A DNA stretch of 64,000 bases from Piedraia hortae CBS 480.64 (taxonomy: Eukaryota), in contig MU005987.1 in the NCBI GenBank assembly GCA_010093745.1, positions 1 through 64,000 on the forward strand. Direction: 5' to 3'. A program made the position numbers and the translations under genes. The notes below the pieces were generated by a model that saw only the letters and a list, made by a program, of their open reading frames with translations, searched no databases and was not told the origin of the DNA. This document shows, piece by piece, positions 61 to 25,667 of this stretch. The first letter of the stretch is position 1. Every line of letters begins with the position of its first letter.

Positions 61-979
61 TTATCAGCCAATCAATAAACAAGGCCCCTAGCGTGGCGGT
101 TACCAGCCAATCATGGCGCAAGGCGAGCACCAAGCCCCGCTTCAGCCGGCTTCTGGTCTTTGACGTGCGGACACGTCGTTACATCAACATCTGATAGCTT
201 CTGTTTGATCTATAAAGATGGAGTGTACCGTTTTTTTTTTTTTTGACCGGAAATGAACGCTCAAATGTCATAGGAGTTTGAGGAGGTGGATCGCAGTCAC
301 AGATAGATGTTGTGAAGTCGAGCGCCTGATAGGCAGGTTTTACAGATCAATGTGATACTACTAATGAGATTTGCACAACGTTTCGCATACATACCTTGCC
401 GCTGGGATTCAAAGAGGGGGAAGACACGGTCTGTGATCGGTTCTTGGCGGCGGGAATAGTGCAACCCCCAAGGAATGCTAATTGAAAATGGGTAGCCTGA
501 TGGATTGATGTCGACTCGAGCACGTACGATTCTGGTGATTCTGTATCATGTAGGCTGGAGCGCCGAAATCTCTGAGTGAATAGAAGAGAAACAAAATTGA
601 GAAAAGTCGATTGGACTACTTTGGGTTTAGTGTCTCGAATATCTGGGCCCACGTCCTGCCCTTGATTGACTCCTTCCTAAAATTCAAAGTGTGCGAGTCT
701 CTACATATAGAGCACGTGACCCCTAAACGTCTGAAGCCAAAAGCCGCCAAAAAATATACTCCATCATTTTACTTCCACACAGCACCATGGCCATTACAAC
801 CATGCACCGATCATTCGAAATAATCAAACAAACCCACCGCATGCTGCGTGCTCAAGCTCCACGGTGTATCAGCAATGGAGCATTCTGGAGTCTTTCAGCC
901 TAGGCAAGGTCCCTGAACGAGTTCAAACAGGCTACCAATCGCTTCGATGCGCAACGCTTCGCATTGCACCGATTTAATG

Positions 980-2305
980 ATGGGACTGAAGGTCGAGTGG
1001 AAGCTTGTTCCGGATGACGTGAGATTGGAAGAGGAAACACGGCCAGATTATGACCCTGAACAGTGGTATCCAGTTTGCGTTGGCGCCATGCTCGGAACTC
1101 GATACCAAGTTGCTGCGAAGCTTTGATGGAGCGCGCAGTCATTTGTTTGGCTGTGCCGCGATTCACTGTATGGTCAGTTCGAAAATGTTATGGTGCATTG
1201 TTAATCTGAAATAGGGAGGAGCGTTGGGTGGCATTGAAGTTCTTCTAGTCCGAGCTCAAAATGGAACGCGAGTTAAGCGCATCGGAAAAGATTCGGGTCA
1301 AGAGCATTCCTGGTAAAGAAACTCTTTCGACTGTGTTGAATCAGTTCGACATAATTCATCGCGACAAGTTCCACAGGTGCCTTGTTTTTCATCCTCTTGG
1401 GTTGGATTTGATAACTCAAGAGTTATTCTACGAAAGAGGTTAGGAAAATTGAGAATTTCTCGCAAGAGCAATTGTTGAAGTACTGCGCGGGGTGGATGCT
1501 ATGCATCCAGCTGGTATTGTACACACAGGGTCGTGCGAGAGCTCTGCTGTTTGTTTTGTGCTAGCCTGTTTGGAAGCTTTGTATCCAGATAATGACCGAC
1601 TTGCTACCTCAGACTCAGATGAATTTGCGTTCATCGCGAGGAAACAGTTCTGGAATCCACTACCACGGAAGTTTTTGAAGGATCGAATTATGTGCTCGAC
1701 CTCGCATTACATATTCCCTCATGGCATACCGCTTGTTTGCAATTTTGGTCATGCATGATCAGGTTTCCGGAGGCAGAGGTTCTACGGAGACCTCACAAAC
1801 CGTCGTTTTCGGGCACCGGAAATCATCTTAGGCATGGAGTGGGATTACAAGGTTGGTATGTGGTCAATGGGTGAAATGGTAAGCCTGAAATTATCGTAGA
1901 TTGTGTCGCATTAATGCATCCAGGTCTTGAGCCTGTTTGGATTTTCTCCGTACGACTTTAGGGAGTCAGACAAGGAGCATTGGAGCGACAAAAAACATCT
2001 CCACCGCTGGAATCACATTTTTGGTCCGCCTCCCAAAGCAGTCCTCGAACGCAGCGAGTGCAAGAAGTAATGGAACAGTAAAGGTAGATGCGACTTTTTC
2101 GATGGAATGTACTTAACACTAATATTTCGACAGGGGTATGGATAGCGACAGCCAAAGTTTGGTGTTTGGAGAGCAAGGAATTCATGGGTCAAAGAGTGAA
2201 GGGATGTAACAAGATTCTGTTCATTAACATGATGCGCAAGATTATACGATGGCTACCAGAAGGGAGGCTTGATGAAGCTGAGCTGATGAGTGATGACTTT
2301 CTGTC
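980..2305 (+). pseudogene. SRPK-like (CMGC) serine/threonine protein kinase pseudogene
   Basis: Collinear fragments in different frames with stops: WKLVPDDVRLEEETRPDYDPEQWYPV, YQVAAKL*WSAQSFVWLCRD, HRCLVFHPLG, MHPAGIVHT, FRAPEIILGMEWDYKVGMWSMG, FINMMRKIIRWLPEGR..AELMSDDFL. Confidence 0.75.
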
Positions 2306-2489
2306 ACGACGCAAGTGCGAAGGTGTTGAGATAAAGCCAATACAATTCGCGGGGTTTGTTGTATAGATCTAGATCAGACTGTAAAAGTCTGCCGAGGCCT
2401 ATGCAATCTACCGGTAGCAGCCATGTCCGGAAAAGGCAAATGGTGGATCTTCCGTCGAAGCAAGCATGGTTGTTGGTTACGGATATGGT

Positions 2490-3310
2490 TCTTGTTTGGC
2501 CGAAGAGTCTCCTCAATGGGAAACTTCTGGTTGTTTGCAGAGGCACTGCCGGTACAATATAGAGGTCGTTCCTGTCTACTCCTCGTTTCGAGAAAGTGTA
2601 CAGGGAGGGTGGGTGTGTTTGGGTACTCAACTTGTTAGGCGAGACCCGAACAAGGGTTCATCCATCAATTTGTCAATTCACATCCACCAGACATTTGTGT
2701 AAGTGGAACGTCTTCCAAGTTTTCGGGCACCGTACCAAGCTTAGTCATCGGGATTTTCCAACTTGCGTGGCATGATGTAATTCTTGGCGGGGACAACAAC
2801 CGCGTGTGAACACCACCCAAACCACATTACAACTCAATCCAACTCACCTTCATCTTCAGTTCATTAGCCAAGGGTCATGTGGATGACCTAACGGACAAAT
2901 TCGATACGTCTAATAAAAGAAGGCAACTAGAAGAAGAACACGACCAGCGTGGCGGACCGAAACACCGACATTCCACAGGTGCAAGTAAATGGAAGACATA
3001 CTCGAGTGGTCAAGGGCTAAAGCTGTTGATTTGTTTGACTCTCTACGCTTGAACGGGCTTCTAGCGTCAACACGAAATCCTTCTTCACGCTTCCGTCTCG
3101 CCCATCATGCGCCCGTGATCAACCAACTCAGCGCAGCGGTCGCACGCAGCCTCCACTCGGGCAGACGCTTCATATACTTTGGCAAGAGAATGCCGGCCAG
3201 CCCGTCAGAGGGATACCGGTGTGGCGTACAGTTGGCATTAAGCCAATTCAAGGACCTGCAAGTACTGATGCTCATACAGAACCCACTGGGCTTTCGGGCA
3301 GAGATGCAAG
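2490..3310 (+). repeat. Degenerate dispersed repeat / decayed gene-family copy A (homologous to ~62890-63740)
   Basis: Shared blocks such as gcttagtcatcg, gtggcatgatgtaattcttggcggg, tcaatccaactcacc, gacatactcgagtg, gagggataccggtgtg and cagttggcattaagcca occur in the same order in both copies. Boundaries are approximate. Confidence 0.8.
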
Positions 3311-4376
3311 TGACTCAAGACAAACATTTTCCTCTTTCCACGTCGTCATGAACTTGGCTAAGAGCTTTGAATAGCTTGCCCTCTCACAAGTTCAAGACAG
3401 AGCCGTGGGAGAGATTGGTCAGTGTGCGGTTCATTCTCTGCGGGGAGGGCCTGGCGTCCATCCATGCCTGTGATGACTGCCGGTTCGAGGCCGCCCAGAG
3501 AAGGCTGGCATCGCGGAGTTGCTCAAGACTGGCCGGCTCGGATACCGGGAGGAGGAGAGAGCCGAGGCCCTTAGGCGTCAGGCGCGTCGCAAAACCCTCC
3601 TAAAGGTCTTGAAGAGGTGCGAAGAGGCACTCAAGAGCGGCAAGGCGGCCAAGAAGGCAGTCCAGGCAGACAATTCGATAGGTGTGCAGATACAAGGTGA
3701 TGGAAGAGGTTTCGCATGAAGATGCGGAAAAGAGGAAGAAGGCGCTGGAAACTGCTCTCGACCAAGCGTATGGGCGGTATCTGTGGTTCCGTCTTCGCCT
3801 TCCCCACTCCCAAACCAAGCATAGTAACGACGTAGGTGGACTGTTGCGTAAAATATGTGATTTAGAGTGGAAGAAAATCGTATTCGTAACTCACACACTG
3901 CGGTTGCTTTTCACTTGCAAACCACCTTTTGCTCGTTGTAACTCATGGCGATTAGGGTGGATATGTATAGACGTGAAACGAAGATGGCGATGGGGGTTGG
4001 CGGAAAATGCCTTGCCCAGGTTGGATGCCTTTTTGTTGCATGTGGAACTCATGATCGTCTGCATGGGTGCAATGCAGAAGTATCGCATTCAAGAACCGAG
4101 GCTTTGCAACTATCCATTGGTACTGCAAGTATGTTTGAGAATCCCACCAAACGTAAACACCCACCAGCAAAGCCATCAAGAATCGCATCCAGTTGGCATA
4201 GAACAAAACAAGTCATGACAATAACGACCCACCAAAAAACTTCTACGAGCGTCCATCCATCCTCAACCCCCAAGAAAACCCCACCAACATGTATCCCACG
4301 GAAAAACATAAAATATACAAACCCAGAAAAACATCACCTCCAAGCATCAACCCCAACCTTTCGCCCTGTCACCCCA

Positions 4377-12188: not shown

Positions 12189-12434
12189 ACTACTTCGTTG
12201 TAAGTGGGGATGGAGGGGGGGTGTATATTAGGTTTATAGATGTTGTGGATGTGCATTCTTTGGGTGGGACTGTTATCCCCTCAAATCAACTTCTGATTTG
12301 ACATCATCGTGGGACAGTTTAAAAAAAAACCCCCTAACAGCGAACAAGACTGGGAATAAATCATGATCTCATAAAAACTTTCATTCCAAAAAGAAAAAAA
12401 AAAAAAAAAACGGGTTCTCGGGTATCACCTTTTC

Positions 12435-15400
12435 TCATGTAGAATTGGCCTGATGATCCTGTTCTGCCAATTCCGCTCTTTCGCGTTCAAGCTCATCCGC
12501 ACGATCAATCGCTCCTTTGATGACTTGTTTGTCTTCCTCTTTCAGACTGTTGATCAATGAGTTGTAGAGCTGGGAGTCTTGGAGGGAGAGTGCTATTATT
12601 TGTCAGTAAACCACACAGCAGGGGATTACCTAAACTCACCATGCAAAGCAGACTTAAACAGTCCGTAAACTTCGACTTTGTCAAGGGGCGAGTCGAGGAG
12701 ATCTTCTTCGAGAGCGTCATCCTCATCATCATCGTCATCTTCAAGGTTGTTGGCCTGTCGACCTAGGAAATCTAGGTACACCTCCCTTTCGCCGCGGACA
12801 TCACCGTCATCTTCGTTTTCCCATTCGCCATCGGCTGCGAAATCTTCTATGACGTCGCCGGCCGTGGGGCCGAGGTCTTCTTCTTGTCGAGCTTCGTTGC
12901 GGGTTTGCTCAGCTTGCGGCAGGGCACGGAAGAGGGCGACTAGACCATCCATCAGCCGTGGCCAGCCTGGTCGCACGCTCGCGGGAATTTCCTCAGTTCG
13001 TAGTCCCAGCAGGGAACTAATCCCGACGATACACAGCTTTTTATCATTAAATCGTGTGAACATCTCCATGTGCGCGAACCAGATGCCAAAGAACCTATCA
13101 GTCCATCCGCCGCCTTCAAGCACGCGCATGGCGAGCCGTGGGTTGTAGTACACAGCATTGATAACCATCTCCATCAGATGGACCCGATAGCTCTTACTCT
13201 TGTAGCCCTCGCGGAGTAGTTCTCCCATGGCGATGGCGATTAATTCTGGTATATAGTGATCAATACCGCCCCGGAGGTTCAGCATCATGATTTCTGCCAG
13301 TCTGCAGCCGCAGATTTTGTCTCCGCCGCCTCCCCTGGTATCGACGAAGATGGTGCGTGTCATGTCCATGACGGCGTCCAGGAACGGCGGGTTCTGCAGC
13401 AGGGCCGAGCCGCCGTATGTCACAAAGTTCTCCAGCGCAGGCAGCATGTCCTCCAGATACAGCTCCGCCCCGGCTTTGTATGTCTGGTGCATGAGGCTAA
13501 ATGCCGTCCACATGTAGGGCGAAATCGCCTTGGAGCTGAACGTGCACGAATCGATAATCTCAAAGATTTCGTTGTACAAATCATACAGCTTGTGCTGTAG
13601 GGTGACGGTAATGAGCGGTAGGAGGATTTCTTCCAAATGGGAAACAACCGACGGTTTGCTCTCCAACGTCAGGATCAGAGTGCCGATAGTCTGCAACACG
13701 CCGAGCGCTGTGATGCTCTTGTCGTCCATGTAATCCGCCACTTCCTCGTCCTTCTCCTGGTTCCGAGCAATCATCTCGCCCACGATTCTGAGATAAGTGT
13801 CTTTAAGCTGTACAGTCAACGCCACGGCAAACGGTGCGAGTTCCTCGGCAAATACTCCAACAAACTCCTCCATCACGTTGGCCAATGCATCTACGTCAAC
13901 CTCGTTGGTCAGCTTAAGCAGCTGCTGCATGACCTGCGGAATGTTCTGCTGCATCAAGGCCTTGATGGGCTCATGGCGGATGAGCGACTGCAGAGCCAAA
14001 GCAGCCGCGACACGAACAGGGAGACATTCGTCTGCCATGCTTTCCAGGATGTTCCTGTAGACAACGACGAGGTTGTTCCCATCAGCAAAGTTGAGCTTCT
14101 CAAACCGCTCCAAAGTAGTGCAGGCTCTCGCACGTAGGAATCCATGCGGACTTCTAAACTCTGGAAAGACGTGACGCACAAAGAAATACTCAACCTGGTC
14201 CGCAATCGGGCTCTTGGGACCCAGGATGGTATCGGCAAGAGTACCAATCATCCGCAACGCGCCCTCCTTTTCCCGCGCATTCTTCGACTCTTCTGGAGCC
14301 GCCTCATACGCATTAACGATGTTGTTGACAAAGCTCAGCACCTCAAACACCTGCTTCCGCCGGTGCTTGGCCAGGACCGTTAAGAAGCTCTGGGCCGACA
14401 TGTCTGGCGAATACGTCTCTTCGAAGAAATTGAGCTTCCGGTGGAGATATTCTGCCGGATCGTCGTCAAACTGCTCCAGATCTTCATTCGACTGACACAT
14501 GACGGGGAAGATGAGGTGGGAGATCAGAACCTTCATGTGTGGACGGAGATGATCCCACGTAGCCTTCGGCCGGACGCATTCCTCCATAAAGGCCAGCGTC
14601 GACGCTAGACAGTGCTTGCTGAGCCATTGCTTTCTCTGCACCCATTTCTCAATCTCTGCAAAGTAGCTTTTGAGTATCTCTGGCGCAAAGTTTGTGATGA
14701 ACGACTCGGCCACCTTGATATACTCATCACCGCTGCTCTTGCCAAGACTGACGGGGTTTCCATAGCGTATGAACAGTCGATTTAGGTTGCCGTAGGCCGC
14801 TTTCTTCGCCTTCCACCAGTGATTTAGCTCCCGCTCTGCTATATCGTCCATCATCGAGCATTCCGGCGGCTCCTTGGCAACGACCTGCAGAAACAGCGTG
14901 CACCAGTTGACCATGGCATCATGCGGCCGCAACGGAGCCGGCAGCTCGAAATAAATCGCCTGTCTATACGCCTTGAGCGTAATCCTTAGCATCTCCCCGG
15001 CCTCCATACTGTTCTCAGCGACCAAACTCGTCGCAATCTGGTGCATCTGCGGAAACGTCGCCGCAACAATCTGATCAAACTCTGCCCTCGAATCGCCCAT
15101 CTTAAGTCGATAAACGCGACAGATGCCCAACAAACACTGCAGACCCGCAAAAACCGACGACACATCTCTTGTATTCAACAACCCAAGCGTCAGATCCACA
15201 AACTGAGGCCACTGTTTCGGAAAATCACAGTTCAACACTTTCTGCAACGCAACAACCAGCTGCGCCCGTGTGTTCGCCGGCGCCCTCGCCAACGCCGGCA
15301 CAAGTCTCGGCCTCACAACCGCCTTCTCCTGCTCGGTGATCGCATTTCCGCCCCCATACATCAACCAACCCCTGTTAATCCTATTCTTAAAGTAAACTAC

Positions 15401-15571
15401 GCACGCGACGCGGACGGCATTATCCTGTTCCGTCTCGAGCACGTCCAGCAGCGCATTCAAAAACCCAGTCTGCTTCTCCGCCGCCTGGAGCTGCGCCTCG
15501 GCATGTTGTCGCACTTCAGCATTCCCATCAAGCGTTGCCTGGATGCCGCTTCGAAGCTGCGAAGCGTCCAT
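12435..15571 (-). CDS. Importin-beta family karyopherin (importin-7/8, Nmd5/Sxm1-like)
   Basis: IBN_N start (QATLDGNAEVRQHAEAQL..VYFKNRI), HWWKAKK, EKEGAL, VRHVFPEF..PHGFLRARAC and an acidic C-terminal loop. One intron near 12594-12639; the last exon ends in TGA at 12435. Confidence 0.9.
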
Positions 15572-15879
15572 GGCCGGATCGCGCAACCTTTCTTTCTCCG
15601 CCCCTCTATTCCCCCCCGGTCCGTGTGGCGTTAAAACCGCTACAGATGATAAAAAATTCCTCGAAACGCAAATTCGATCCCGCGGCGGAAAGATCAAATA
15701 ACCTTCCGCTCGATGATATGCCTTTAGCGATGCCGTTGCCTCTACACGGAGTGTCACGACTGCGTTGACATTTGGTGCCCAGATTAGTCACGTCGAGGGT
15801 CTCTCGTTAGGGTTAGGACTTTTGACAAATCCCTTGGTGAGGTAAGCAATCGCGGGGTATACTCCCAAAGTTCCTATTC

Positions 15880-16862
15880 CTACAGAAGACATTCATACTG
15901 GTTAGAGGCTAGCCACAGACACATCAGCGTCAGATCCTCGTGCAGTCTGCTCCGGTCTTGCTCTTGCAGTCTGACTTTTCCTTCTCTTGCTAAGCGCGGT
16001 AAGATCTCTGTCCCACCGTTAACTCGGAGAAATAATTTTTTTTTGAAGAAATATATATTGACATACCGAATAGTCTGATCAGATATGCGCATCTGTATAC
16101 TTGGATAGGAAAGACGTTCAGATGGGCCTGCTTGTATCCTATCCACATTTCCTTTTCGACAGAGGTGTAGAGCATTTCGGTTTCAAAGTGAATGTAGAAG
16201 ACTTGTTCAACAATGGATATTGCCCTTTCGATCCGTGCCAGTTTGCAGGGTGGCTGGATTGCGGCCATGTGGGCCCGGAAGGCAGCGAGGAAGGCGGAAA
16301 CTGTCACCCTGCCTCCACCGTAGTTTTCCGGTAGGTAGCGTTGCAGGGTGGGCGGAAGAATGGGCCAGATGTCGATTTCGAATGGTGGGGCGCGTGCATT
16401 ATTAGCTAGAGCCATTTTGAAAAGTGTTGTTGGGTGTTGTGCTTTTGATTTTGGTGAAGATGATACTGTATGTGTATGTGGCACGCCAAGCGTTTTGGCA
16501 GTGTTGACCACAGCTCTGTGTTTTCGGAAAGAGCCAGGTGCTTTGCTTTGCTGACAATCTTTTGCTGTGTCATGCGGCGGGGGGTGTTCCAATCCTGACG
16601 TGTCATATCCAGGTGCATCGGTCATGACAATGTCAGTGGCCTGTTCTGTCTGGCTAGGAGCCTCATTGGGCCGCGTCTTACTCCGTTTGCGAGATCTTGT
16701 TGTTACTGTTTCAAGTGACCTCTTTCGCTCGGATAAGCCATGAAATATGTTGAATGTGAAGTCATCTCTACACTCGACAAGTTTTGCGGATGGTCTTCGG
16801 ACACGTGTAGAACGTCGCGACGAGGAGTTGTAACTTCTTTGCTCGAGTCCCGCCGTTCGCAT
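15880..16862 (-). CDS. Divergent MRG-domain protein (Eaf3/MRG15-like C-terminal domain, no chromodomain)
   Basis: Splicing intron 16008-16066 (gtatgt..ttaac..cag) gives FYIHFETEMLY..EK...PIQVYRCAYLIRLF|EILPRLA...LHEDLTLMCLWLASN, matching the MRG core pattern. The N-terminus is basic and low-complexity. Confidence 0.6.
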
Positions 16863-17121
16863 GTCACCGGATCCAACTTTGAAGTTTGGGCTGACTTGGG
16901 GTGTTGTGAAAAGTTTGTTAGTCAGGCGGCAGCGTTCGCCACTGCCCCTGCAGCCAATTACCCACCTTTCTCTCGTATAAAATTTGGACGTTTGTCCGAC
17001 AGATAATAATTGGTTGGGTTAGTATAACAGTAGCTATCATCACACATCACATCTATGCGCACATCTAATGTGTATCATGCCATAACACAACGCTCAAACG
17101 CTATCATAACACCACTGCTGC

Positions 17122-18843
17122 TCACCGCATTGCATGCCAGAAATGGTTCGGCCAAACAGCTTGATACTCCTTCTTCTCCATGGTGACGAGATCTCTCCAC
17201 TGTGCAAACGTCATCCGCAATGGAGCAGGCACCGTCGACAAAAGGCCAAAATAAGGCTCAAGTAAAGGCCGCATCTTAAGAGGCCAATTTGGGCAGTCTC
17301 CGTCAAACCCAATCCAGTCCATGAGTTCCTGCAGCCACAATTCCATAGCACGGTTACCTGCCGCGCCTAGGTAATGTGCAAGCACGCGCAGATACGTTTT
17401 TGTCTTATCACACGGCACACCGTCATCCGGAAACAGCAGTTGGACAAATTTATCGCGCGCGTGTTGATATGGAAGAACAATCTCTTCCTCATCGTCGCCA
17501 TCGTACCATCGCCAGTCCAGGAACTTCACGCCTCTCAGCTCCCCGCAGACAAGGTCTGTGAATGCATTTGTGGAAAAAGACTCTTCGCTCAGCCATTCTA
17601 CTGCAAACGCCCTTCTAGCGACCTCTGCAACTTCTTCAACCGTGCAATGGGCCAGCCGACCTTTTAGACCCATGAGCATATCACCCTCCAGAGCCTCGAC
17701 CCAGACGCATTCGGCAAACTCAGACATCGGCATTTCCGGATGGAGCAAACGCACCGACGCGTAACCAAGGAAAAGCAAAATCGTAGACTGAACAAGCGTA
17801 TTCCAAGGGTGTCCGTACGCTGTACCAACATGTTTCCTCAGAAACAGTCCATCATCACGGAAGATTTTTGTATTCACCAGTCCCTCATATACAAAATCAA
17901 AGTATGCATCATACGTCTTCTCTGTCCCCTCGAAAATCTGCTCGCGAAGCATATTAATTGCAACCCGCACCATCCACGGATTGATACTCGAATCAAAATC
18001 CCGAACTTTGAAATGCAGAAACCTGTCATAACGCGCGAACCTCTTCCAGATCTTCTCAGATCCCCCACTAAGCATCCCCCTTCTCACCGCAATCGGAAAC
18101 TCGCCACCAGCGTAAGCGTCCATAACCCTCCTCGCCGTAATCGCAGTAAGCCTCAAATCCCGATAACTAGGCGTAAACTCCAACCTCCCCACGGCAGGAA
18201 CCGCCATCTTCGCATCCAAACTCCCCCTCTCCACCACAGCTCCCCTCCCCCCCAACCTCGCATACTCAATCTCAACCCTCTGACCCTCCATCAACCTCCC
18301 AAAAACCTCCTCCGCCTCCATAACCGCAACCTCCATCCCCTTCTGAACCTTCATATCCTTCCGAAGACACACCACACCCGCAAAACCCTCCTTAACCCCA
18401 ACCCCCTCCAGCTCCCCTCGTCCCGGAAAGGGCACCAAACGATCCAGTTTCATCAAATCAGCAGTATAATAAACCGCATCCCCTAGTCCGCCCAGATACC
18501 TCTCCCCGGGCAAATAACCCGGATGATCAAACCTTCCCAAAATCGCCATTTGAATGGGCGTGCAACTCTCCACAAACTTGTAGTCGTTGACGTTAAAAAA
18601 CGGAATCGGCGGCGCGCTGATTGAGGCGAATGTGTGGATTATTGGATCCGGAGGGGAAAAGGTTATGCATGTGGAGGCGGATTTAAGTTTGCAGGTATTG
18701 TCGACTTGCTCGATGGTGATGTGTTGGAATTGGCGGCGGAGGTGAGTGAGGGCGTTGAATTGTTCTTGGACACGGCTGAGAGGAGGTGGTTTGGGGTCGT
18801 GCGGGGCCGTGGAGGGGTTGGGCTTGCGTTTTAACGTGCCCAT
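17122..18843 (-). CDS. Endogenous viral element: RdRp-like protein of dsRNA mycovirus type (Durnavirales; unirnavirus/Curvulaviridae-like) with degenerate catalytic motifs
   Basis: Uninterrupted, intronless 573-aa ORF with RLGGRG, GRL..SYRDL, FPIAV, KVRDFDSSINPWMV (motif A), RDDG..KHVGTAYGHPWNTLVQS (motif B), EALEGDMLMG (motif C), KFL (motif E) and HYLGAAGN. Confidence 0.8.
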   Translation of the reverse strand: MGTLKRKPNPSTAPHDPKPPPLSRVQEQFNALTHLRRQFQHITIEQVDNTCKLKSASTCITFSPPDPIIHTFASISAPPIPFFNVNDYKFVESCTPIQMAILGRFDHPGYLPGERYLGGLGDAVYYTADLMKLDRLVPFPGRGELEGVGVKEGFAGVVCLRKDMKVQKGMEVAVMEAEEVFGRLMEGQRVEIEYARLGGRGAVVERGSLDAKMAVPAVGRLEFTPSYRDLRLTAITARRVMDAYAGGEFPIAVRRGMLSGGSEKIWKRFARYDRFLHFKVRDFDSSINPWMVRVAINMLREQIFEGTEKTYDAYFDFVYEGLVNTKIFRDDGLFLRKHVGTAYGHPWNTLVQSTILLFLGYASVRLLHPEMPMSEFAECVWVEALEGDMLMGLKGRLAHCTVEEVAEVARRAFAVEWLSEESFSTNAFTDLVCGELRGVKFLDWRWYDGDDEEEIVLPYQHARDKFVQLLFPDDGVPCDKTKTYLRVLAHYLGAAGNRAMELWLQELMDWIGFDGDCPNWPLKMRPLLEPYFGLLSTVPAPLRMTFAQWRDLVTMEKKEYQAVWPNHFWHAMR

Positions 18844-20919
18844 TCAATAATTGTCGTTTTGGTGGTTTTTACATGCAGAAGGCGGGTTGACGTTTAGGTG
18901 CGGGTCGGGCCGCGCCGGCGGGCGAGGTTCAAATTTGGGTTCGGTGGTTTTTTGTAAAGTGCAGCTCCCGTTAGATGTGCCGGCTTTTGGGTGTTAGAGT
19001 TCAATTCGGGGGTCTGGGTGGTATGGAGAAAAAAATTTTCCCTCCACATAGGGATTGCATCTCCATGATGTTGATCTGTAAACATATAGGATGAAACCCC
19101 ATAACCAAAGGTGGCTTCACAGGTTGAATGATCGACAATATGCTTCTTTGCACTGCCGTTGTGATTTGGTCTGGCCTGGTCATCGACTGGTCTAGAACTT
19201 CGTCGTTCGTGATGATGACAAATGGGAAGATGCGGTAACGAGGACAATCACTAGGAAAACAGATTCGAATGTCTCTATGGCAACCATCCTTTCTATAGCA
19301 AATGATATATGACGTTATGCCATAGGTTAGCCCAGATGCAGAAGGAGGGATTCTTTACGTTGGTCTGCCGGCACGTGATTGCCAAGACATTCTTCCCCAC
19401 CTCACGCTCACCTTTTTTTCTCAACCTTCTTTTACCATGTCAAAGAATAAACCTGCACCTTTCCCATAGTCATGTTCTCCGCACCCGCCGATCAAGTTCC
19501 AGTCACCCTGCCACTTTGGCAGATAACGGCTGGCCTCGTGAACATCACCGTTTCTGCAAGCCTCGTCAACAGAAAACCGCCTGACTGTGTCGGCCGTTGC
19601 GACAATGATGGAAGTTTCCAATGACCCTCCGCTCGCCCAGTACATCCAGGCGAAAAAAAGGTAGTTTTACAATGTTGACTGCGAAATCACTGTGCTGACT
19701 GGCCCGTAGGGATATGCCTCAAATCAGCAGGTCCGAATGAGGGCTCCACACATCTGTTCTCCCATGCCATGGTAGTCAGGCAAGAAGTTGCTGGCCGCGT
19801 GCTGTCGGTGTCTGCGAATTTCCAGGACAGACCGATGACAGTACAGGTGCCACTTAAGTATATCTGCGCAGGCTATTGGCTCTCTCCGCCGGAGCGAACA
19901 AACCGGGAACCTCATTCGCCCGTGTTGGGGCAGCCGCTCACAGCTGGGGTCAAAGGCTGAGTGGCTTGCATTTGACAGGTTCTGCAAAAGGTTCTCTGCC
20001 GTGTCAATCCGCAGTTAAGGTATATTCACAATGTTGGCTCCAGAATCATTGTGCTGACTGGCTCGTAGAGATACCAGCAGATCAGAATTCAAGTTACGTG
20101 CGACAACCGCTTTACAAACAGATGACTAACTACAGACGGATGACCGGCGAGTGTGCGGAGGTTCCAAGTTATTAGGGATTAAATTTGCCAGCAAATATGG
20201 CAAAATTGCACGACGATGCTAAGTACTAGTGCAAACCTCGATGATTATAGTACGCCGTCGACCTCAATTTGAAGCTACAGTAGTACCTAAGATTATAATT
20301 AGCTAAGTCATGGAACCTGCAAGGGGTAGTGGCCGAGATTGTCTGGCCCAGAGAACGAGCACTTCGAGTATCCCAGTGTTTTGTTCTTCTACCATCTATA
20401 TTGAGTCTCAGTCTTCGCTGCGTTCACAATGAGATTCGTGTGAGACAACATCCAAGACACCCAGTGAAGCGCATACCCTGGCAGAATATGTATATCCAAA
20501 GCTCTACGTCTGCTCAGCATCACCACGATGTCCATATGGCCGCGCGCTCAAATGTGACAAACAACTGGACAATGTTGAGTTTTGGGTAGACGGCTACGTT
20601 AGCGTAGGATGACAATCCGTGACAGCACCGCGTCGAGCTAATTCACACAGCATCAATCCTCAAAATCGCCGGATTCGCCGCGTAACAGGCCCGTGATGAC
20701 AGCATATCAAGCTGATTCACACGGCAGGAATCCTCAGCATCGCCCGATCCGCCGCGGGGCAGGTCCGTGCCAAGGCCCCTGGACTGCACCGAAGTATCAG
20801 ACATGCCAACACAATCGTTTTCCAATCCCCTCTCCAAGCAAACACCGAAAACTTATCAAGACTCCAACAACTTTCAAGCGGACGCAGTGCTTCTCCGCGT
20901 TCAGAGCCTTTGTGCCTTC

Positions 20920-22239
20920 CTACTCCAACTCATCGGCCCTCTTCCTCTTCCTGTCCTTGCAAGCGGACTGGTTAACCACCTTGGCGGGAGGTGGGAAGAT
21001 GAGCGCACCACCTTGAAGACCAACATAACGAAGAGCAGGAGCGTGGGTCCTGATAATGACACCGATGCGCTGCTGGTTCTCCCTTGACATACTCGTGTCG
21101 TTTCCAAGTCTAGGACCCTCGAGCAATAGGTGGCTGAGTTTCGGGAACAATGGCCCTTTTTCGTTCTCCAAGAGTTGGACGTCAAAGTGCCCGGAGAGTC
21201 TGAGCGCAGAAAGTCCACGACAGACCTTTCCTAGTCCGATGAGGGCATTTGTGGTGAGATTATTAGGTACTTGGAAGTTTAAAATCTTCAGATGCTGCAT
21301 GCCTGAGATCATGCTGATCAGATCTTTGTCCTGAATCTGCACATTCGCAGCAGCGCCGACGATGACAAAACTCAGCTTCTGCAGGTTCTTCAAATAAGAG
21401 ACGCTTTGCAGTGCTGCGGGACTGATGCCAAAGCCCGAGGAGCCCTTCGAAATAATGCGCAAACTCCGCAACTCCACACAAAGAAAGTCCGCAAATTTTG
21501 CTGGGATTGTATCCGTAAACTGCACTTTGAATTCAGTACAGTGGCTCACGACCTTGAACGGCCACGGGAACTTTCGCCGCGTTAAATCCGCGCACACCCA
21601 TGCGAGCTGCGAAGCGTTTAAAAGGAGACGGCGGAAGCTGTCTTGCTTGACCAAACATTCGATAAGCAGGTCCAAGTCTTTGACTTGCATGTAAAGAACG
21701 TGACTAATATCCAGCATTTCAAGTTTCTCAAGCCGCTCCAAATTCTGGACGAGAAAGAACCACTTGGTAAACCTCCCCGTAATGGTCAGACGCTCGATAT
21801 TACTCGGCAGACTTGGCAGAACACTTATCTGCAGCGGATCATCCCATCTAATCGGTCCAGGGGGGCCAACATCAATCTGCACACTCGAAAGTCGCTCAAA
21901 TGATGATAGGTTGGCGAGGGTGCTCGTCCCGCTGGTCATACACAGCACATTGGCTGGAATATTAAGATGTCGGATGTGGCGGACGTACACCGCCTTTCGT
22001 TCTTCACTAAGGGCTTCGACACAGACGAGATCAACGCGCCGCCAGAGAACATCCCTAGCCCAGTCGGCCCATCTGGGATGGACCCGGAGGAGTTGGGTGA
22101 GAGCATGATTGTCGCCGCTTAGGGCTTGGCAGATCATGTAGACGACGTCGGAGCAGAAGATAATTGGTAGCCTCATCTTCCTGCACATTTTGGGAGATGG
22201 AAGCTCCGGCGCTGGTTTGTGCACTGTTATGGATGCCAT
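20920..22239 (-). CDS. F-box-like / leucine-rich-repeat (RNI-like) protein
   Basis: 439-aa ORF; N-terminal F-box-like segment (DVVYMICQAL....LTQLLRVHPRWADWARDVLWRRV) followed by LxxLxI repeats (LEKLEMLDI, LRSLRI, LKNLQKLSF, MQHLKILNF, FPKLSHLLL). Confidence 0.65.
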   Translation of the reverse strand: MASITVHKPAPELPSPKMCRKMRLPIIFCSDVVYMICQALSGDNHALTQLLRVHPRWADWARDVLWRRVDLVCVEALSEERKAVYVRHIRHLNIPANVLCMTSGTSTLANLSSFERLSSVQIDVGPPGPIRWDDPLQISVLPSLPSNIERLTITGRFTKWFFLVQNLERLEKLEMLDISHVLYMQVKDLDLLIECLVKQDSFRRLLLNASQLAWVCADLTRRKFPWPFKVVSHCTEFKVQFTDTIPAKFADFLCVELRSLRIISKGSSGFGISPAALQSVSYLKNLQKLSFVIVGAAANVQIQDKDLISMISGMQHLKILNFQVPNNLTTNALIGLGKVCRGLSALRLSGHFDVQLLENEKGPLFPKLSHLLLEGPRLGNDTSMSRENQQRIGVIIRTHAPALRYVGLQGGALIFPPPAKVVNQSACKDRKRKRADELE

Positions 22240-23633
22240 GGTGATAGACTACAGTGTGGCTTACGGTGGGGAGCTTTAGAGCATGCTTGGAAATTTGTGG
22301 GGAGAGAGCGTGTCTTGGTACATTGGAATTTGATGACTGATTTCGTCATAGGCTTCAATGGCCATAGTACGTCATTGATACTGGAAATGACAGGTTTGGA
22401 CGCGAAGGGACGATGACATGTTTGATGTCGGCAGCACCATTGTTGTTAGATGAAATTTTGGACTTCGAGGCGGCGAGGTTTCAGGTATGGTTGGTGATTG
22501 ACGAAGTTCTTGGCGCGCTTTGAAAAACCCCAGATGACTAAGATGCCGAATCCAAGAGAAGTCATCAAGTCCACGACAATCAGATAATATTGATCCGCTT
22601 CATGACTATGAATCTGTTGCTTAGCCAGGAATGCATAGCTGGCGTTAAAGTTAAGCTGCCCTCGGACTGCAAAGCTAGATTTTGACAATTTGTGCTTTGG
22701 TAAACTGTGGAAACGGAATTCTTCCTTCCACGAGATAAGGCCAACGAAAAAAGGAGAATAGTCTTAACGGCATGAGTTTCTTCCCTTTGCTATTAATCTA
22801 CCTATCCCTCCCGCTTTCCCTTTCTTATAAAACAAGCTCCCACCTCTGTGGAGCTCTGATCACGGTCAACAAAACGCCCAGGACGAGAAAAGCAGAGAAT
22901 ACCCCGGTTATGTCTATAAAGCCTTTCTGTTGGGAGTTGTCGAGTAAAAGGCCCAGTGGGTCCGGGGGAGCTTAGCTAGGCAACGTGCAACCCAGCCGTA
23001 GAAATCAAGTTAAACACGACAATACGTACTCACTTCATCATTACATACTCTGAGCTGTACGCTACATTCCTCGTGGATTGCGAATGACAAAGCGTCTCTT
23101 GCGAGATTAACTAATGCACTCGTAGCTCACGACGACTGTTTGAGAGACGAGTTATTTTAGATACTCTGTGCTTGATATCTAACTACCAGAGTCAGATGGT
23201 CCTGTATTCTTCAGTTTCTGTAGCTTCTCCCGCCGTGGGACCAAGCCTAATCCAGAGGTATCCCGTGACGCTCGCTACTCGACATGTTCTCTCTTCTGAT
23301 CGCACTGAGGAAGCAAATTGGATGGAAACATTCCTGTTATACAGCCCTGAAAAGTGCCTTTCAGTATCTAGGTATCCGATCACCGTTGCTGCAAATTTCA
23401 GAAAAACGCTCGAACAGCACTTTACGGGCGCGCTCCAGCTGATTGGCCTGTGTTACAAGCATATCGCTCTAGACAAGACCAGGGTCCCAACTTCAGCCAA
23501 CCCTGAAACGCAGCTGCACTTCTTCGACCCAGCCAACATATTCAAGGCGATTTTGTTCTCTGAAGAAATCAAAGGATCAAAACGTTTACCATGAGAACCC
23601 ACAGGTCTCAGGCGACCGAAGTGGTGTGAATTG

Positions 23634-24370
23634 CGGCAGATGGCGAGCCACTGAACATCCTGTTGATACTCCGCGGACAGGGTAACGTGTCCGAGGAAGA
23701 AAGAGCGCAGTACGACTCGGACGTTATCGTGTGCTTCAATCATAAGGCATGATACAATAGCCAGTTGGTCGTGCAACAGCTGCATGAAGACATTGCCCCC
23801 AAGATTGCACCGCGGGACACGCGTTCTACTTCTTCAACATACAGTACAATCGCTGGCAGTTCATCCAGCGATGCACTGATGATAGCGAAAATCGTGAGAA
23901 GTCTCGTTGTCCTAGGGGGCTTCATCCGTGTTCAAGCTTCCTCCGGTTCCAGTTTAGTCGCTCCGCGTGGCAGCTTGCCGTCGAGTTGAAACACCACAAG
24001 CAACCAGAGCACAAGGACACCTATTTGTCTGCGCAATGCTCTGCCTTCATTTAGCAAAACGTGGCTCAACAATTTTCTTCGGCAATCCTAAAGAGTTTGG
24101 TGAATTTGGGGATCCGACAGCATCAGCCCAGACGCATTGTATGGACAACGCAAAGTTCCACAGACCTAAGGCGTTTAAAGCCGCGACAAGGGCTACCAAT
24201 GCGATGGGATGCACACCTTGCTGCCAGACACTAGACGTCAGCACCAACAAGCCGATGATAAGCATGGTGGCTTTCCAAGAGAAATCTTATAACGATGACT
24301 ACGAGTACACATCGTCAGATCGTCGAATAATATTCACCAAGGCCGTGGGACATGCTGTACGACAGTCGAG
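23634..24370 (+). mobile_element. Decayed pogo/Tc1-superfamily (DDE_1) transposase remnant
   Basis: ADGEPLNILLILRGQG....E...YDSDVIVCFNHKA*YN, then MDNAKFH, GCTPCCQTLDVSTNKPM (cf. QPLDVxxNKPFK) and DRRIIFTKAVGHA. Contains stops and frameshifts. Confidence 0.65.
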
Positions 24371-24519
24371 GAAAGATTGTGGTCGCCCTATCGTTTCAGT
24401 GCAGGGGCATCTCAGTTTCCCCCTCTGGCGACGAGTACCACGAAATTTCAATCAAAAACGCCCCAGATTACCATCACAAGGCAGCGTTCGTGACCCCAAT
24501 CGGGTTATATAAGTAGATC

Positions 24520-25020
24520 ATCATGCCCTTGGGGCTGGCCAATTCTTCTTTATCACTCCATTTGGGCTTTTTGAGTGGCTTGTGATGCCCTTTGGCCTTA
24601 CGAACTCCCCTGCAACATCTCAAGCGCTCGAGGTGCTTGCGCCAACGTAGAATTTGCTGCGACTACCGTAACCTCGGCCGCATCACGCGGAAAGACGCGC
24701 ACCCACTACCCAACATTGGCGACGAGATCCAAAGGGCAAGGGGGCCCGTACGCCTTCCCCGACTTAAAGGATGGCTTCTGGCACATTCCCCTAGCCGAGG
24801 AAAACCGCCACAAGGCAGCCTTCATAACGCCCATCGGCCTATGCGAATGGGTCGTGATATCCTTCGGACTCACCAACTCGCCAGCGACATTTCAAGCGCT
24901 GTGTGTGCTCTGCTGTTGCTGTGCGAACGGTCATGTACGCAAGGTTACCCAACGGCCTGCTGCGCGGTGGTGCACCGCCTATATGGATGATATCCTCGAG
25001 TTCAGCGATATCGCGTCCTT
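24520..25020 (+). mobile_element. Ty3/Gypsy LTR-retrotransposon reverse transcriptase remnant
   Basis: CCDYRNLGRITRKDAHPLPNI, DLKDGFWHIPL....RHKAAFITPIGLCEWVVISFGLTNSPATFQ and AYMDDIL; frameshifted. Confidence 0.85.
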
Positions 25021-25667
25021 ATTCGCCGGTCTGCAATCCTAAAGCTAAATGACGGTGTTGGGACGGTTTGGAAGGCTGAAGTGGAGGAATATTGTGGAGG
25101 AGAGGTCTGATCTGGCGGTATGTTTCGGCGTGGTTACAAGCCACCTGAGTCAGATTTCTTGTTGTGTCTCACCACCAGTGGTGGTGCAATAGCCTAGCTG
25201 CTGCGCAGGTATTTTGTCTTTTATACAGCTTCAATCTTTTATCGATTATAAGTTTGATTGGTTTCTCTTTCATTGCCTTGGGGCACATCGCTCCTGGTCC
25301 AATTTTAATGAGTTTGAATGGCGGCCTCATGGAGTGGGAGAGAGACCACAACGATCGAGCAATTGATTGAAAGTGAGGTGTTTGTCTAGCTAAGAGTATA
25401 TTGGCCGTGAGAGTAGACTCGTGGTCTATCCTGTGCGGAAGATATGATAAGGCCACAGTTTCTCTACCGTCCAAAAGACAAAATTGTTCAGCAATAGGTA
25501 TACCTACCTCCCAAATTTATTGTATCATGAAAGGCGCACCATCCCACGCGCAGCACGCAGAACCTCAAACAGCAGTCTGCATCACAACCAGGAAAGAGTA
25601 CATAAAAAGCAATACACCCTCCCCTTTCCCAACCCCCACTACAACACACAAATCAATGATACAAAAA

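What the first reader, a model, noticed from the sequence alone, without database searches (positions are those of the whole stretch)
17122..18843. Intact but apparently catalytically dead mycovirus RdRp gene in a fungal chromosome: candidate domesticated viral protein
Seen: a stop-free, intronless 573-codon ORF between ordinary nuclear genes, with viral RdRp palm motifs in the correct order, whereas the other foreign elements in the window (DDE, RT, Pif1, Doc) are broken. Established: RdRps of Durnavirales mycoviruses (unirnavirus, Curvulaviridae and partitivirus relatives) have motif A DxxxFD, motif B (T/S)SGxxxT and motif C GDD. Here motif A reads KVRDFD (~17994-18011, first Asp lost), motif B reads TAYGHPWNT (~17797-17823) and motif C reads LEGD (~17680-17691, one Asp lost), while scaffold blocks (FDSSINPWMV, RDDG, NTLVQS, HYLGAAGN) are kept. 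Inference: loss of catalytic residues combined with an open full-length frame suggests selection for a non-polymerase role, such as a dominant-negative or decoy antiviral factor, an RNA-binding protein, or a source of antiviral small RNAs. No capsid or ORF1-like partner was recognised nearby.
Basis: partly seen in the sequence, partly recalled or inferred. Interest (0 to 1): 0.88.

Follow-up and report, generated by a model that had tools for sequence, protein, structure and literature searches.

The report
Polymerase-dead mycovirus RdRp gene, transcribed
A fungal chromosome carries an intact, transcribed copy of a double-stranded-RNA mycovirus polymerase gene whose catalytic residues are destroyed but whose protein core is kept, so it is a good but unproven candidate for a viral gene the host has taken into use.

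Summary
Window 17122-18843 (minus strand) is a stop-free, intronless 573-codon ORF. It matches Pfam RdRP_1 above the curated cutoff and aligns end to end (35% identity) with ~600-aa RdRps that sit alone on ~1.9-2.0-kb contigs. The closest named structures are curvulavirus-like or unassigned bipartite dsRNA mycovirus RdRps.

It lies between ordinary nuclear genes. One DNA-run contig bridges both junctions.

P0001 is changed at 9 of 19 motif columns, including 6 that are invariant in 24 of 24 full-length relatives (K202, D279, G386, D387, K421, G443).

A second run of the same organism, shown to be RNA by its spliced contigs, holds a discrete 1842-nt contig on 17012-18853, with no cover in the upstream spacer.

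P0001 differs at 28 of 71 family-conserved columns, against a mean of 7% for relatives. It still keeps the hydrophobic pattern as well as functional relatives do. Neutral decay of that size would leave the frame open in about 0.1-3% of simulations.

The best reading is a selectively kept, expressed pseudo-polymerase, perhaps an antiviral decoy. The role is inferred. No close relative genome exists, so dN/dS could not be tested. It is a new member of a known kind: fungal genes derived from non-retroviral RNA viruses.

The parts
17122..18843 (-). Intact intronless ORF of 573 codons plus stop: endogenous copy of a dsRNA-mycovirus RdRp (P0001)
   Evidence: ORF; Pfam RdRP_1 E 5.9e-9; 35% identity, aa 22-564 aligned to aa 40-589 of P0003; AF2 model, pLDDT 91.1; RdRp fold matches
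17012..18853 (.). Footprint of a discrete 1842-nt contig in run X2, which behaves as RNA. It is 100% identical to the window. The transcript strand and true ends are unknown.
   Evidence: table 8, record 6. X2 contigs skip introns at 12592/12640 and 15997/16073 and give no cover in the bins 19274-20207.
18238..18258 (-). RLGGRGA (aa 196-202), a motif-F-like block (label recalled). The Lys that is invariant in 24 of 24 full-length relatives is Ala here (K202A).
17992..18009 (-). Motif A, KVRDFD (aa 279-284). The first Asp is replaced by Lys; the second Asp (D284) is kept.
   Evidence: D in 24 of 24 full-length relatives and in 45 of 47 of all relatives that cover the column
17797..17823 (-). 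Motif B, TAYGHPWNT (aa 341-349). The family's T-S-G reads A-Y-G here; G344 and N348 are kept.
   Evidence: S or T in 24 of 24 full-length relatives at the column of Y343
17680..17691 (-). Motif C, LEGD (aa 385-388), in place of LGDD: G386E and D387G, with D388 kept.
   Evidence: G in 48 of 48 and D in 46 of 49 relatives at these two columns
17569..17595 (-). WLSEESFST (aa 417-425), a motif-D-like block (label recalled). The invariant Lys is Glu (K421E) and G419 is Ser.
   Evidence: K in 24 of 24 full-length relatives
17512..17523 (-). FLDW (aa 441-444), a motif-E-like block (label recalled). The family's FLGK has become FLDW (G443D, K444W).
   Evidence: G in 24 of 24 and K in 22 of 24 full-length relatives
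17122..18207 (-). The shorter 361-aa gene model found in the protein databases (P0002, from Met213). It would lack most of the fingers region.

Best explanation
The ORF is a non-retroviral endogenous viral element. It is a DNA copy of nearly the whole coding region of the ~2-kb RdRp segment of a curvulavirus-like (bipartite or unassigned dsRNA) mycovirus. It sits as a single gene between ordinary nuclear genes of a dothideomycete fungus; labels an identical neighbour protein as from Piedraia hortae CBS 480.64.

Shown: the viral origin, the chromosomal context, the loss of residues needed for nucleotidyl transfer, and an RNA contig over the locus.

Inferred: the frame is kept open by selection, and the product is a folded pseudo-polymerase that keeps the right-hand RdRp core but cannot polymerise.

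The mechanism I think most likely is inference only. The dead polymerase would still recognise partners of related viruses, such as their plus-strand RNA or their capsid or partner protein, and would compete with the active viral RdRp. That would be a protein-level dominant-negative 'counterfeit' giving heritable interference with curvula-like viruses.
For: Viral origin:
- Pfam RdRP_1 is above its cutoff.
- The full-length alignment to P0003 has 196 of 553 identities, only 13 gap positions, and E 7e-116.
- There are 52 non-self relatives.
- In the tree, P0001 lies inside a 16-row clade with SH-aLRT 95.
- The AF2 model has pLDDT 91.1. Its best named matches are Sclerotium rolfsii unassigned dsRNA virus 1 RdRp (E 1.8e-44, TMq 0.88), Rhizoctonia solani dsRNA virus 1, Curvularia thermal tolerance virus and Curvularia virus 2.
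- Relatives sit alone on ~2-kb contigs: 1913 nt, 2127 nt, and 1978 and 1947 nt, each with one 579- or 589-aa ORF and intact motifs.

Integration:
- The neighbours are Syf1, importin-beta, VPS9 and V-ATPase D.
- One DNA-run contig of 16,224 nt covers 12420-23000.

Loss of catalysis:
- 9 of 19 motif columns are changed. Six of them are invariant in 24 of 24 full-length relatives.

Expression:
- Run X2 has spliced contigs and no cover in the spacer, and it holds a separate 1842-nt contig on 17012-18853.

Maintenance:
- P0001 differs at 9 of 27 invariant columns and at 28 of 71 columns that are >=90% conserved. Leave-one-out means for relatives are 3.9% and 7.0%.
- Neutral substitution to amino-acid divergence of 0.16, 0.28 or 0.35 leaves the frame open in 1.3%, 0.2% or 0.07% of simulations, with indels ignored.
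- Hydrophobic-class columns are kept at 94 of 102, against a mean of 0.946 for relatives. Neutral f=0.3 predicts 0.815 (P=0.002).
- Strictly polar or charged columns are kept at only 32 of 41, against 0.98 for relatives (Fisher P=0.027).
- There is no RIP signature.

Precedent:
- A yeast capsid-derived gene gives immunity to a related virus (PMC6166632; search listing and start of abstract only; also cited in a passage of PMC13756089).
Against: - There is no orthologue, so no dN/dS. Searches found nothing above 37% identity except the window's own gene model. The nearest genomes are only about 66% identical in importin.
- The size of the post-integration divergence is estimated indirectly. One relative with intact motifs, P0026, also shows 25-29% mismatches at conserved columns and a long branch. 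Part of P0001's mismatches may therefore predate integration.
- At the conservative end (f about 0.13-0.15), the open frame has P of about 0.02-0.03, and the hydrophobic test is not significant (P 0.13-0.22).
- The locus was picked because it is open, which is selection bias.
- Codon usage is poorly matched to the host: RSCU r is 0.25, against 0.38-0.81 for nine host genes.
- The transcript strand, its ends and its translation are unknown. The database gene model starts only at Met213.
- Several radical changes fall at conserved Gly and Pro positions (G163D, G254R, P192I, P461H), which could harm folding.
- The high AF2 confidence comes from the alignment of viral relatives. It does not show that this sequence folds.
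- No partner gene (capsid or segment-2 protein) was found, and no related virus is known in this host.
Confidence: 0.5

Rival explanations
1. Neutral relic. The copy is an unconstrained pseudogene-in-waiting that has not yet picked up a stop or frameshift and is transcribed incidentally. The motif losses are ordinary decay.
For: Most non-retroviral viral inserts are neutral (general statement in PMC12548735, passage seen). Mismatches are spread over the whole protein, not only the motifs. Codon usage is not host-like. No orthologue shows conservation. At the lowest plausible divergence the open frame is only mildly unlikely, P about 0.03-0.05. The locus was chosen because it is open.
Against: Five or more residues that are invariant in 24 of 24 relatives and sit in catalytic motifs are lost. 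That implies substantial non-polymerase evolution. At the point estimates (f about 0.3) an open 573-codon frame has P of about 0.001-0.002, even ignoring indels. The hydrophobic pattern is as well kept as in functional relatives, while polar invariants are lost. The alignment to P0003 has only 13 gap positions, all in frame. A discrete RNA contig matches the gene, whereas the flanking spacer has no cover.
Confidence: 0.25
2. Domesticated for a cellular role unrelated to viruses. The RdRp fold would be reused as an RNA-binding or scaffolding protein.
For: The same evidence for maintenance and expression applies as for the main reading. Fungal totivirus-derived genes have been argued to have non-viral functions (PMC2805616, passages seen).
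Against: Nothing in the sequence points to a particular cellular role. There is no added domain: Pfam finds only RdRP_1. The gene is apparently confined to one lineage.
Confidence: 0.13
3. RNA-level immunity. The locus matters as a transcribed template for antiviral small RNAs against related viruses, and the open frame is incidental.
For: The locus is transcribed. A spliced plus-strand transcript ends about 120 nt from its 3' side, so the two are convergent. EVE-derived small-RNA immunity is known in animals (start of abstract of PMC6166632).
Against: It does not explain the open 573-codon frame or the kept hydrophobic core. At about 35% protein identity to every known relative, nucleotide identity would be too low for small-RNA targeting unless a much closer virus exists. 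No overlapping antisense contig was seen.
Confidence: 0.07
4. Artefact or still-active enzyme. Either a contaminating viral sequence was misassembled into the chromosome, or this is a polymerase that works with non-canonical motifs.
For: The RNA contig (17012-18853) does not itself reach into the neighbouring genes. RdRps with unusual motif-C triads are on record (reference title seen).
Against: A contig from a DNA run spans both junctions at the same depth as the flanks, though that run may be the source of the assembly. A dsRNA virus would not appear in a DNA library. No relative with a full-length frame lacks the motif A first Asp (24 of 24 keep it), and here motifs A, B and C and three further motif-like blocks (my D, E and F labels are recalled) are hit together.
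Confidence: 0.03

Closest known systems
Totivirus-derived RdRp and capsid genes in yeast genomes (NIRVs or paleoviral genes; Taylor & Bruenn 2009, PMC2805616; STORM array, PMC13756089)
   Same: In both cases a non-retroviral dsRNA mycovirus gene is integrated in a fungal chromosome, keeps an uninterrupted ORF despite strong divergence, is transcribed, and has altered residues that matter for the viral activity. In those papers the altered residues are the capsid decapping residues. STORM also shows more amino-acid divergence than exogenous relatives (passages seen).
   Different: The donor here is a curvulavirus-like ~2-kb RdRp segment (Durnavirales), not a totivirus. The host is a filamentous or black-yeast-like dothideomycete, not a budding yeast. 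There is a single gene with no capsid copy beside it. Here it is the polymerase motifs themselves that are destroyed. Orthologues and Ka/Ks exist for the yeast cases and not here.
Curvulaviridae-related putative EVE RdRps of Mortierellaceae (Virus Evol 2025, PMC12548735, section 13 read)
   Same: Both are RdRp-only, ~600-650-aa proteins encoded in fungal DNA assemblies, with Curvularia thermal tolerance virus as the nearest classified virus.
   Different: Those are in Mucoromycota. They form a clade of 64 sequences that tracks the host phylogeny, and no loss of catalytic motifs is discussed in the section I read. A search for 'Piedraia' in that paper's two held supplementary files found nothing, so this locus does not seem to be listed there.
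Debaryomyces hansenii capsid paleogene that gives immunity to a related virus ('counterfeit viral protein', PMC6166632; listing and start of abstract only)
   Same: It is the working model I propose: a host-expressed, virus-derived protein interferes with a related exogenous virus at the protein level.
   Different: That case is a capsid protein and was tested experimentally. Here the protein is a polymerase and nothing has been tested.
Exogenous curvulavirus-like or unassigned bipartite dsRNA mycovirus RdRps (Sclerotium rolfsii unassigned dsRNA virus 1, Rhizoctonia solani dsRNA virus 1, Curvularia thermal tolerance virus; named through BFVD)
   Same: They share the fold (TMq 0.88 to the best match), the length, the motif order and most scaffold blocks.
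   Different: Those are replicating RNA segments with DxxxxD, SG and GDD intact. This copy is chromosomal DNA and has lost these residues.
Replicase-mediated resistance from mutated (GDD-altered) replicase transgenes in plants, and the intact L-polymerase EVE of Eptesicus bats
   Same: Both are precedents: a defective or endogenous polymerase gene can interfere with a virus, or can be kept intact by a host.
   Different: They are other kingdoms and virus groups. The plant effect was later largely attributed to RNA silencing. As I recall it, the bat gene keeps its catalytic motif.

Membership tests
Viral RNA-dependent RNA polymerase (Pfam RdRP_1, right-hand palm polymerases) | Significant profile match to the family model | tested here: met
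   PF00680, E 5.9e-9, 35.6 bits against a cutoff of 23.9, aa 249-374
Viral RNA-dependent RNA polymerase (Pfam RdRP_1, right-hand palm polymerases) | RdRp fold with motifs in the order (F)-A-B-C-(D)-(E) | tested here: met
   AF2 model with pLDDT 91.1 and pTM 0.91. Foldseek matches to viral RdRps in BFVD (E 1.8e-44) and in the PDB (norovirus, SARS-CoV-2 nsp12 and polymycovirus polymerases, E about 1e-15 to 1e-14). Motif blocks align column for column. The model leans on the alignment of relatives.
Viral RNA-dependent RNA polymerase (Pfam RdRP_1, right-hand palm polymerases) | Catalytic residues: motif A first Asp, motif B Ser-Gly, motif C Gly-Asp-Asp | tested here: not met
   K279 stands for D, Y343 for S/T, and E386-G387 for G-D. 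These columns are invariant, or S/T only, in 24 of 24 full-length relatives. It is therefore homologous to the family but is not a working member.
Curvulaviridae-like / unassigned bipartite dsRNA mycovirus RdRp lineage | Groups with RdRps of about 560-640 aa carried alone on ~2-kb segments | tested here: met
   P0001 lies inside a 16-row clade with SH-aLRT 95. Relatives' contigs are 1913, 2127, 1978 and 1947 nt with a single RdRp ORF.
Curvulaviridae-like / unassigned bipartite dsRNA mycovirus RdRp lineage | Exists as a replicating dsRNA with a second segment | tested here: not met
   The copy is chromosomal DNA bridged by a DNA-run contig. No second-segment or capsid-like ORF was recognised nearby by Pfam, though Pfam may hold no model for such proteins.
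Non-retroviral endogenous viral element (NIRV / EVE) | Virus-derived sequence contiguous with host genes in genomic DNA | tested here: met
   It is flanked by Syf1, importin, VPS9 and other genes. A DNA-run contig of 16,224 nt covers 12420-23000. Caveat: that run may be the source of the assembly.
Domesticated (co-opted) EVE gene | Intact full-length ORF and transcription | tested here: met
   The 573-codon ORF. An 1842-nt contig in a run with spliced contigs. Strand and translation were not shown.
Domesticated (co-opted) EVE gene | Purifying selection (dN/dS below 1 across orthologues or alleles) | not testable with these tools
   No orthologue above 37% identity. The nearest genomes are about 66% identical in importin. 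Indirect substitutes point the same way but depend on an estimated divergence: the open-frame probability and the hydrophobic-versus-polar retention.
Domesticated (co-opted) EVE gene | A demonstrated host benefit, such as virus interference | not testable with these tools
   This needs experiments.

The most novel reading that the evidence does not exclude
The host keeps a pseudo-polymerase as an immunity gene. It would be an RdRp-fold protein with every catalytic motif disabled that still binds the RNA or partner protein of curvula-like dsRNA viruses and poisons their replication complexes. That would be the first polymerase-derived, rather than capsid-derived, protein-level EVE immunity in fungi, kept open for a long time in a lineage with no sequenced close relatives.
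Probability: 0.25. Interest if true: 0.8.

Novelty: new member of a known kind. Interest (0 to 1): 0.52.

Why it matters
Genes captured from non-retroviral RNA viruses are known in fungi, but the few that have been studied are mostly totivirus capsid or capsid-polymerase genes of yeasts. This locus adds a different donor lineage (curvulavirus-like RdRp-only segments) and a different host class.

It also shows an unusually clean pattern for a pseudoenzyme. The catalytic and other polar invariant residues are lost, while the hydrophobic core, the length and the reading frame are kept, and RNA is made from it. If the protein proves to be made and to interfere with related viruses, it would show that hosts can turn a viral polymerase itself into a defence. 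It would also give a simple system for asking which polymerase surfaces are needed for assembly of replication complexes in small dsRNA viruses.

If it proves neutral, it is still a dated molecular fossil showing that this virus group infected the ancestors of a human-hair-colonising fungus.

Tried and rejected
- Whole-genome search for further copies: no genome is held for this window.
The lineage name therefore rests on BFVD fold matches.
- Viral contigs in IMG/VR: the 38-sequence alignment had no stretch conserved enough to search with. The single protein P0003 found no relative.
- PDB sequence search: only one chance-level hit, E 1.6.
- Protein Atlas: only generic viral RdRp clusters for P0001, and a weak MRG-domain lead (0.87) for the downstream ORF.
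- Earlier findings of this scan: nothing by place, by sequence or by words.
- Run search: the tool marked the RNA status of X2 as a guess, with no holder on record as RNA. I inferred RNA from the spliced contigs.
- Target-site duplications, LTRs or a poly(A) tail around the insert: only short, chance-level repeats, and no A-run after the stop. The integration route is therefore unknown.
- Rfam families in 15500-21000: none.
- RIP as a cause of the many changes: rejected. TpA/ApT is 0.52 and (CpA+TpG)/(ApC+GpT) is 1.30, like the host genes.
- Codon usage and GC3 as a clock: uninformative. The ORF's GC3 is 0.576, host genes range 0.48-0.77, and two related viral contigs give 0.44 and 0.61.
- Root-to-tip length as a sign of acceleration: P0001's terminal branch is long (1.36), but its path from the base of the clade is within the range of relatives, for example P0015. 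The signal lies in where the changes fall, not in how many there are.
- Literature: no paper in the library held all four of 'endogenous viral element', 'RdRp', 'GDD' and 'catalytically inactive'. 15 of the 45 papers that mention Piedraia hortae were listed, and I judged those by title and the start of the abstract only; none of the 15 concerns viruses or EVEs. bioRxiv supplements were not opened.
Full report
**1. Observation**

The ORF is real and lies at the stated coordinates. It runs 17122..18843 on the minus strand and encodes 573 aa plus a stop. A stop-to-stop listing gives the same limits, and an in-frame TGA directly precedes the ATG. My coordinates are motif A (aa 279-284) at 17992-18009, motif B (aa 341-349) at 17797-17823, and motif C (aa 385-388) at 17680-17691.

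**2. What it is**

Sequence evidence:
- Pfam RdRP_1 matches at E 5.9e-9, with 35.6 bits against a curated cutoff of 23.9.
- The 5.8-billion-cluster search scored 7998 candidates and returned two proteins. One is the window's own shorter gene model, P0002 (361 aa, from Met213). The other is P0003, a 597-aa protein on a 1913-nt contig.
- BLASTP of the ORF against P0003 aligns aa 22-564 to aa 40-589. It gives 196 of 553 identities, only 13 gap positions, and E 7e-116.
- The exhaustive HMMER search of 1.84 billion representatives gave 53 proteins at E<=0.001. One is P0002, and none of the rest exceeds 37% identity.
- A search among shorter proteins added only P0036 (141 aa, on a 2127-nt contig).
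- A metagenome scan gave two contigs, of 1978 and 1947 nt. Each has a single RdRp ORF, of 579 and 589 aa, with short untranslated ends and intact DxxxxD, SG and GDD.

Structure evidence:
- An AlphaFold2 model built on 38 aligned sequences has pLDDT 91.1 and pTM 0.91.
- Its best named matches in BFVD are the RdRps of Sclerotium rolfsii unassigned dsRNA virus 1 (E 1.8e-44, TMq 0.88), a Ceratobasidium mycovirus-like sequence, Rhizoctonia solani dsRNA virus 1, Curvularia thermal tolerance virus and Curvularia virus 2.
- PDB matches are viral RdRps only.

The donor was therefore a curvulavirus-like or unassigned bipartite dsRNA mycovirus whose ~2-kb first segment carries only the RdRp. The ORF copies nearly the whole coding region of such a segment.

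**3. Context**

- The neighbours are ordinary nuclear genes: V-ATPase subunit D, Syf1, an importin-beta (Nmd5-like) and a VPS9-domain gene. Further out are GH125, an M28 peptidase, HMG-CoA synthase, a kinase and others.
- The next best importins are only 66% identical at full (92-93%) coverage (Oleoguttula, Acidomyces, Meristemomyces, Hortaea, Baudoinia). The highest listed is a partial match at 70% over 80% of the query.
- So no close relative genome is in the databases. The lack of an orthologue says little about age, and dN/dS cannot be computed.

**4. Integration and transcription**

In the DNA run X1, which may be the source of the assembly, one contig of 16,224 nt covers 12420-23000 with one differing letter. 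It bridges both junctions.

Run X2 comes from the same coded organism, a different study and a later year. The tool only guessed that it is RNA, but its contigs behave as RNA:
- They skip 12593-12639, which reads CT..AC on the plus strand and is therefore a minus-strand intron of the importin gene.
- They skip 15998-16072.
- They give no cover in the bins 19274-20207 or from 21142 on.

X2 holds a separate 1842-nt contig lying exactly on 17012-18853 with no differences. Its word depth is 30.8, against 212-228 for the contigs of the neighbouring genes; depth is a poor measure of expression level. The locus is therefore transcribed as its own unit. Strand, true ends and translation are not shown. 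The contig does not reach into the neighbouring genes, so it is not independent proof of the junctions.

**5. Catalytic state**

I aligned P0001 with all 53 relatives and checked 19 motif columns. P0001 is changed at 9 of them.

| Change in P0001 | 24 full-length relatives | All relatives that cover the column |
|---|---|---|
| D279K (motif A, first Asp) | D in 24 of 24 | D in 45 of 47 |
| S343Y (motif B) | S or T in 24 of 24 | S or T in 46 of 48 |
| T342A (motif B) | T in 20 of 24 | T in 24 of 47 |
| G386E (motif C) | G in 24 of 24 | G in 48 of 48 |
| D387G (motif C) | D in 24 of 24 | D in 46 of 49 |
| K202A (RxGGRGK block) | K in 24 of 24 | K in 40 of 45 |
| K421E (GxKSF block) | K in 24 of 24 | K in 44 of 45 |
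| G443D (FLGK block) | G in 24 of 24 | G in 37 of 45 |
| K444W (FLGK block) | K in 22 of 24 | K in 35 of 45 |

D284, G340, G344, N348, D388, S422 and L442 are kept. My labels F, D and E for the last three blocks are recalled by analogy with picorna-like polymerases and come from no call.

It is established polymerase biochemistry, also recalled, that the motif A and motif C aspartates hold the two catalytic metal ions. With the motif A Asp and the first Asp of GDD gone, polymerase activity is not expected.

The only other sequences with damaged motifs are short or partial hits (P0037, P0041, P0044, and P0042 with GDN).

**6. Is the frame kept by selection?**

Orthologues are lacking, so I used three indirect tests.

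(a) Mismatches at conserved columns. I used the 24 full-length relatives.
- P0001 differs at 9 of 27 invariant columns and at 28 of 71 columns that are >=90% conserved.
- Leave-one-out values for the relatives average 3.9% and 7.0%.
- The one outlier, P0026, reaches 25% and 29%. It keeps 8 of the 9 motif residues that P0001 has lost.
- In the tree (quick IQ-TREE, LG+C20), P0001 lies inside a 16-row clade with SH-aLRT 95. Its end branch is 1.36, against 0.27-0.95 for 14 of the other 15 members.
- Its path from the base of the clade is not beyond that of P0015. What is unusual is where the changes fall, not their number.

(b) Open-frame simulation. If those changes reflect unconstrained evolution after the loss of polymerase function, the implied amino-acid divergence is about 0.3. 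The lower bound, after subtracting the baseline, is about 0.13.
- In simulations on the actual codons (kappa 2, substitutions only), the frame stays open in 5% of runs at amino-acid divergence 0.105.
- It stays open in 1.3% at 0.16, 0.7% at 0.20, 0.2% at 0.28 and 0.07% at 0.35.

(c) Hydrophobic against polar columns.
- Of 102 columns that are hydrophobic in >=90% of relatives, P0001 keeps a hydrophobic residue in 94 (0.922). The mean for relatives is 0.946.
- Neutral change at f=0.3 predicts 0.815 (P=0.002). At f=0.15 it predicts 0.880 (P=0.13, not significant).
- Strictly polar or charged columns are kept in class in only 32 of 41 (0.78), against 0.98 for relatives.
- The contrast of 9 of 41 against 3 of 54 class losses gives Fisher P=0.027.

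This is the pattern of a pseudoenzyme, with the fold kept and the chemistry lost. There is no RIP signature.

**7. Weaknesses**

- The divergence estimate assumes that the donor looked like its relatives. P0026 shows that a lineage with intact motifs can be nearly as aberrant.
- At the conservative end the tests are only suggestive.
- The locus was selected because it is open.
- Codon usage is poorly host-like: RSCU r is 0.25, against 0.38-0.81 for nine host genes. The low-scoring neighbour ORF gives 0.14.
- Several radical replacements hit conserved Gly and Pro positions.
- The confident model owes its confidence to the viral alignment.

**8. Mechanism**

I rate a selectively kept, expressed, polymerase-dead protein acting in virus interference at about 0.5. 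This figure takes the maintenance part and the role together, and most of the doubt lies in the role. The rivals are:
- a neutral relic (0.25);
- domestication for a non-viral role (0.13);
- an RNA-level small-RNA role (0.07);
- an artefact or a still-active enzyme (0.03).

The interference model has one experimental precedent in fungi, for a capsid-derived gene (PMC6166632; listing and start of abstract only; also cited in a passage of PMC13756089 seen).

**9. Comparison with what is known**

- Fungal genes from non-retroviral RNA viruses have been described since 2009. They have open frames despite divergence, transcripts, Ka/Ks below 1, and altered viral active-site residues in the capsid copies (PMC2805616, passages).
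- A 2026 study describes a domesticated totivirus-like array with accelerated amino-acid divergence (PMC13756089, passages).
- A 2025 survey reports 64 Curvulaviridae-related putative EVE RdRps, with a mean length of 646 aa, in Mortierellaceae (PMC12548735, section 13 read in full). 'Piedraia' does not occur in its two held supplementary files.
- No paper in the library combined 'endogenous viral element', 'RdRp', 'GDD' and 'catalytically inactive'.
- 15 of the 45 papers that mention the species name were listed. Judged by title and the start of the abstract only, none of those 15 concerns viruses.

The locus is thus a new member of a known kind. Three things set it apart: the donor lineage, the host class, and the fact that the polymerase motifs themselves are ablated while the core is kept.

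**10. Verdict**

The viral origin, the integration and the catalytic death are well supported. Transcription is supported. Maintenance by selection is likely but not proven. The function is inferred.

Noticed in passing
window 15998-16072, with the X2 contig over 12420-16891: The RNA contig that covers the importin gene and the next ORF carries two splices of opposite orientation. The splice at 12593-12639 reads CT..AC on the plus strand (a minus-strand intron). The splice at 15998-16072 reads GTAAGA..ATAG on the plus strand (a plus-strand intron), and it lies over the 3' end of the minus-strand ORF 15990-17018. A spliced plus-strand, possibly antisense, transcript may therefore cross that ORF. 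It ends about 120 nt from the 3' side of the RdRp transcript.
   Followed up: partly
window 15990-17018 (-): This ORF, 342 codons stop to stop (290 aa from the ATG), lies directly downstream of the RdRp gene. It has no Pfam family and only a weak Atlas lead to MRG-domain chromatin proteins (0.87). Its codon usage fits the host poorly (RSCU r 0.14) and its GC3 is low (0.48). Whether it is a real host gene is open.
   Followed up: partly
window 24575-25039 (+), within the ORF-poor stretch 22300-25600: A broken reverse-transcriptase fragment (Pfam RVT_1, E 1.3e-11, in a 155-aa ORF) lies about 5.7 kb from the RdRp gene. Other short plus-strand ORFs sit around it, which suggests a decayed retroelement. 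Such an element is the kind of source of reverse transcriptase that an RNA-virus integration needs, but there is no direct link to this insert.
   Followed up: no
window 53555-53890 (-): A weak Fic/DOC match (E 4.7e-4, below the curated cutoff) in a 112-aa ORF. No DDE transposase or Pif1 helicase match was seen among the 137 small ORFs scanned. The 25 ORFs lying in 1-4215 were not scanned.
   Followed up: no
relatives P0026, P0037, P0041, P0044, P0016, P0042 (protein ids): Some relatives also look aberrant. P0026 has a long branch (1.43) and 25-29% mismatches at conserved columns, with intact motifs. P0037 (GYD), P0041 and P0044 (motif A first Asp replaced), P0016 (GDE) and P0042 (GDN) have altered motifs. 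These may be further endogenous or decaying copies in other genomes.
   Followed up: no
window 17668-18486 (+): A 272-codon open frame lies antisense to the RdRp ORF. It has no Pfam match and its translation is proline-rich and of low complexity. It is probably a by-product of the sense strand's codon bias.
   Followed up: partly
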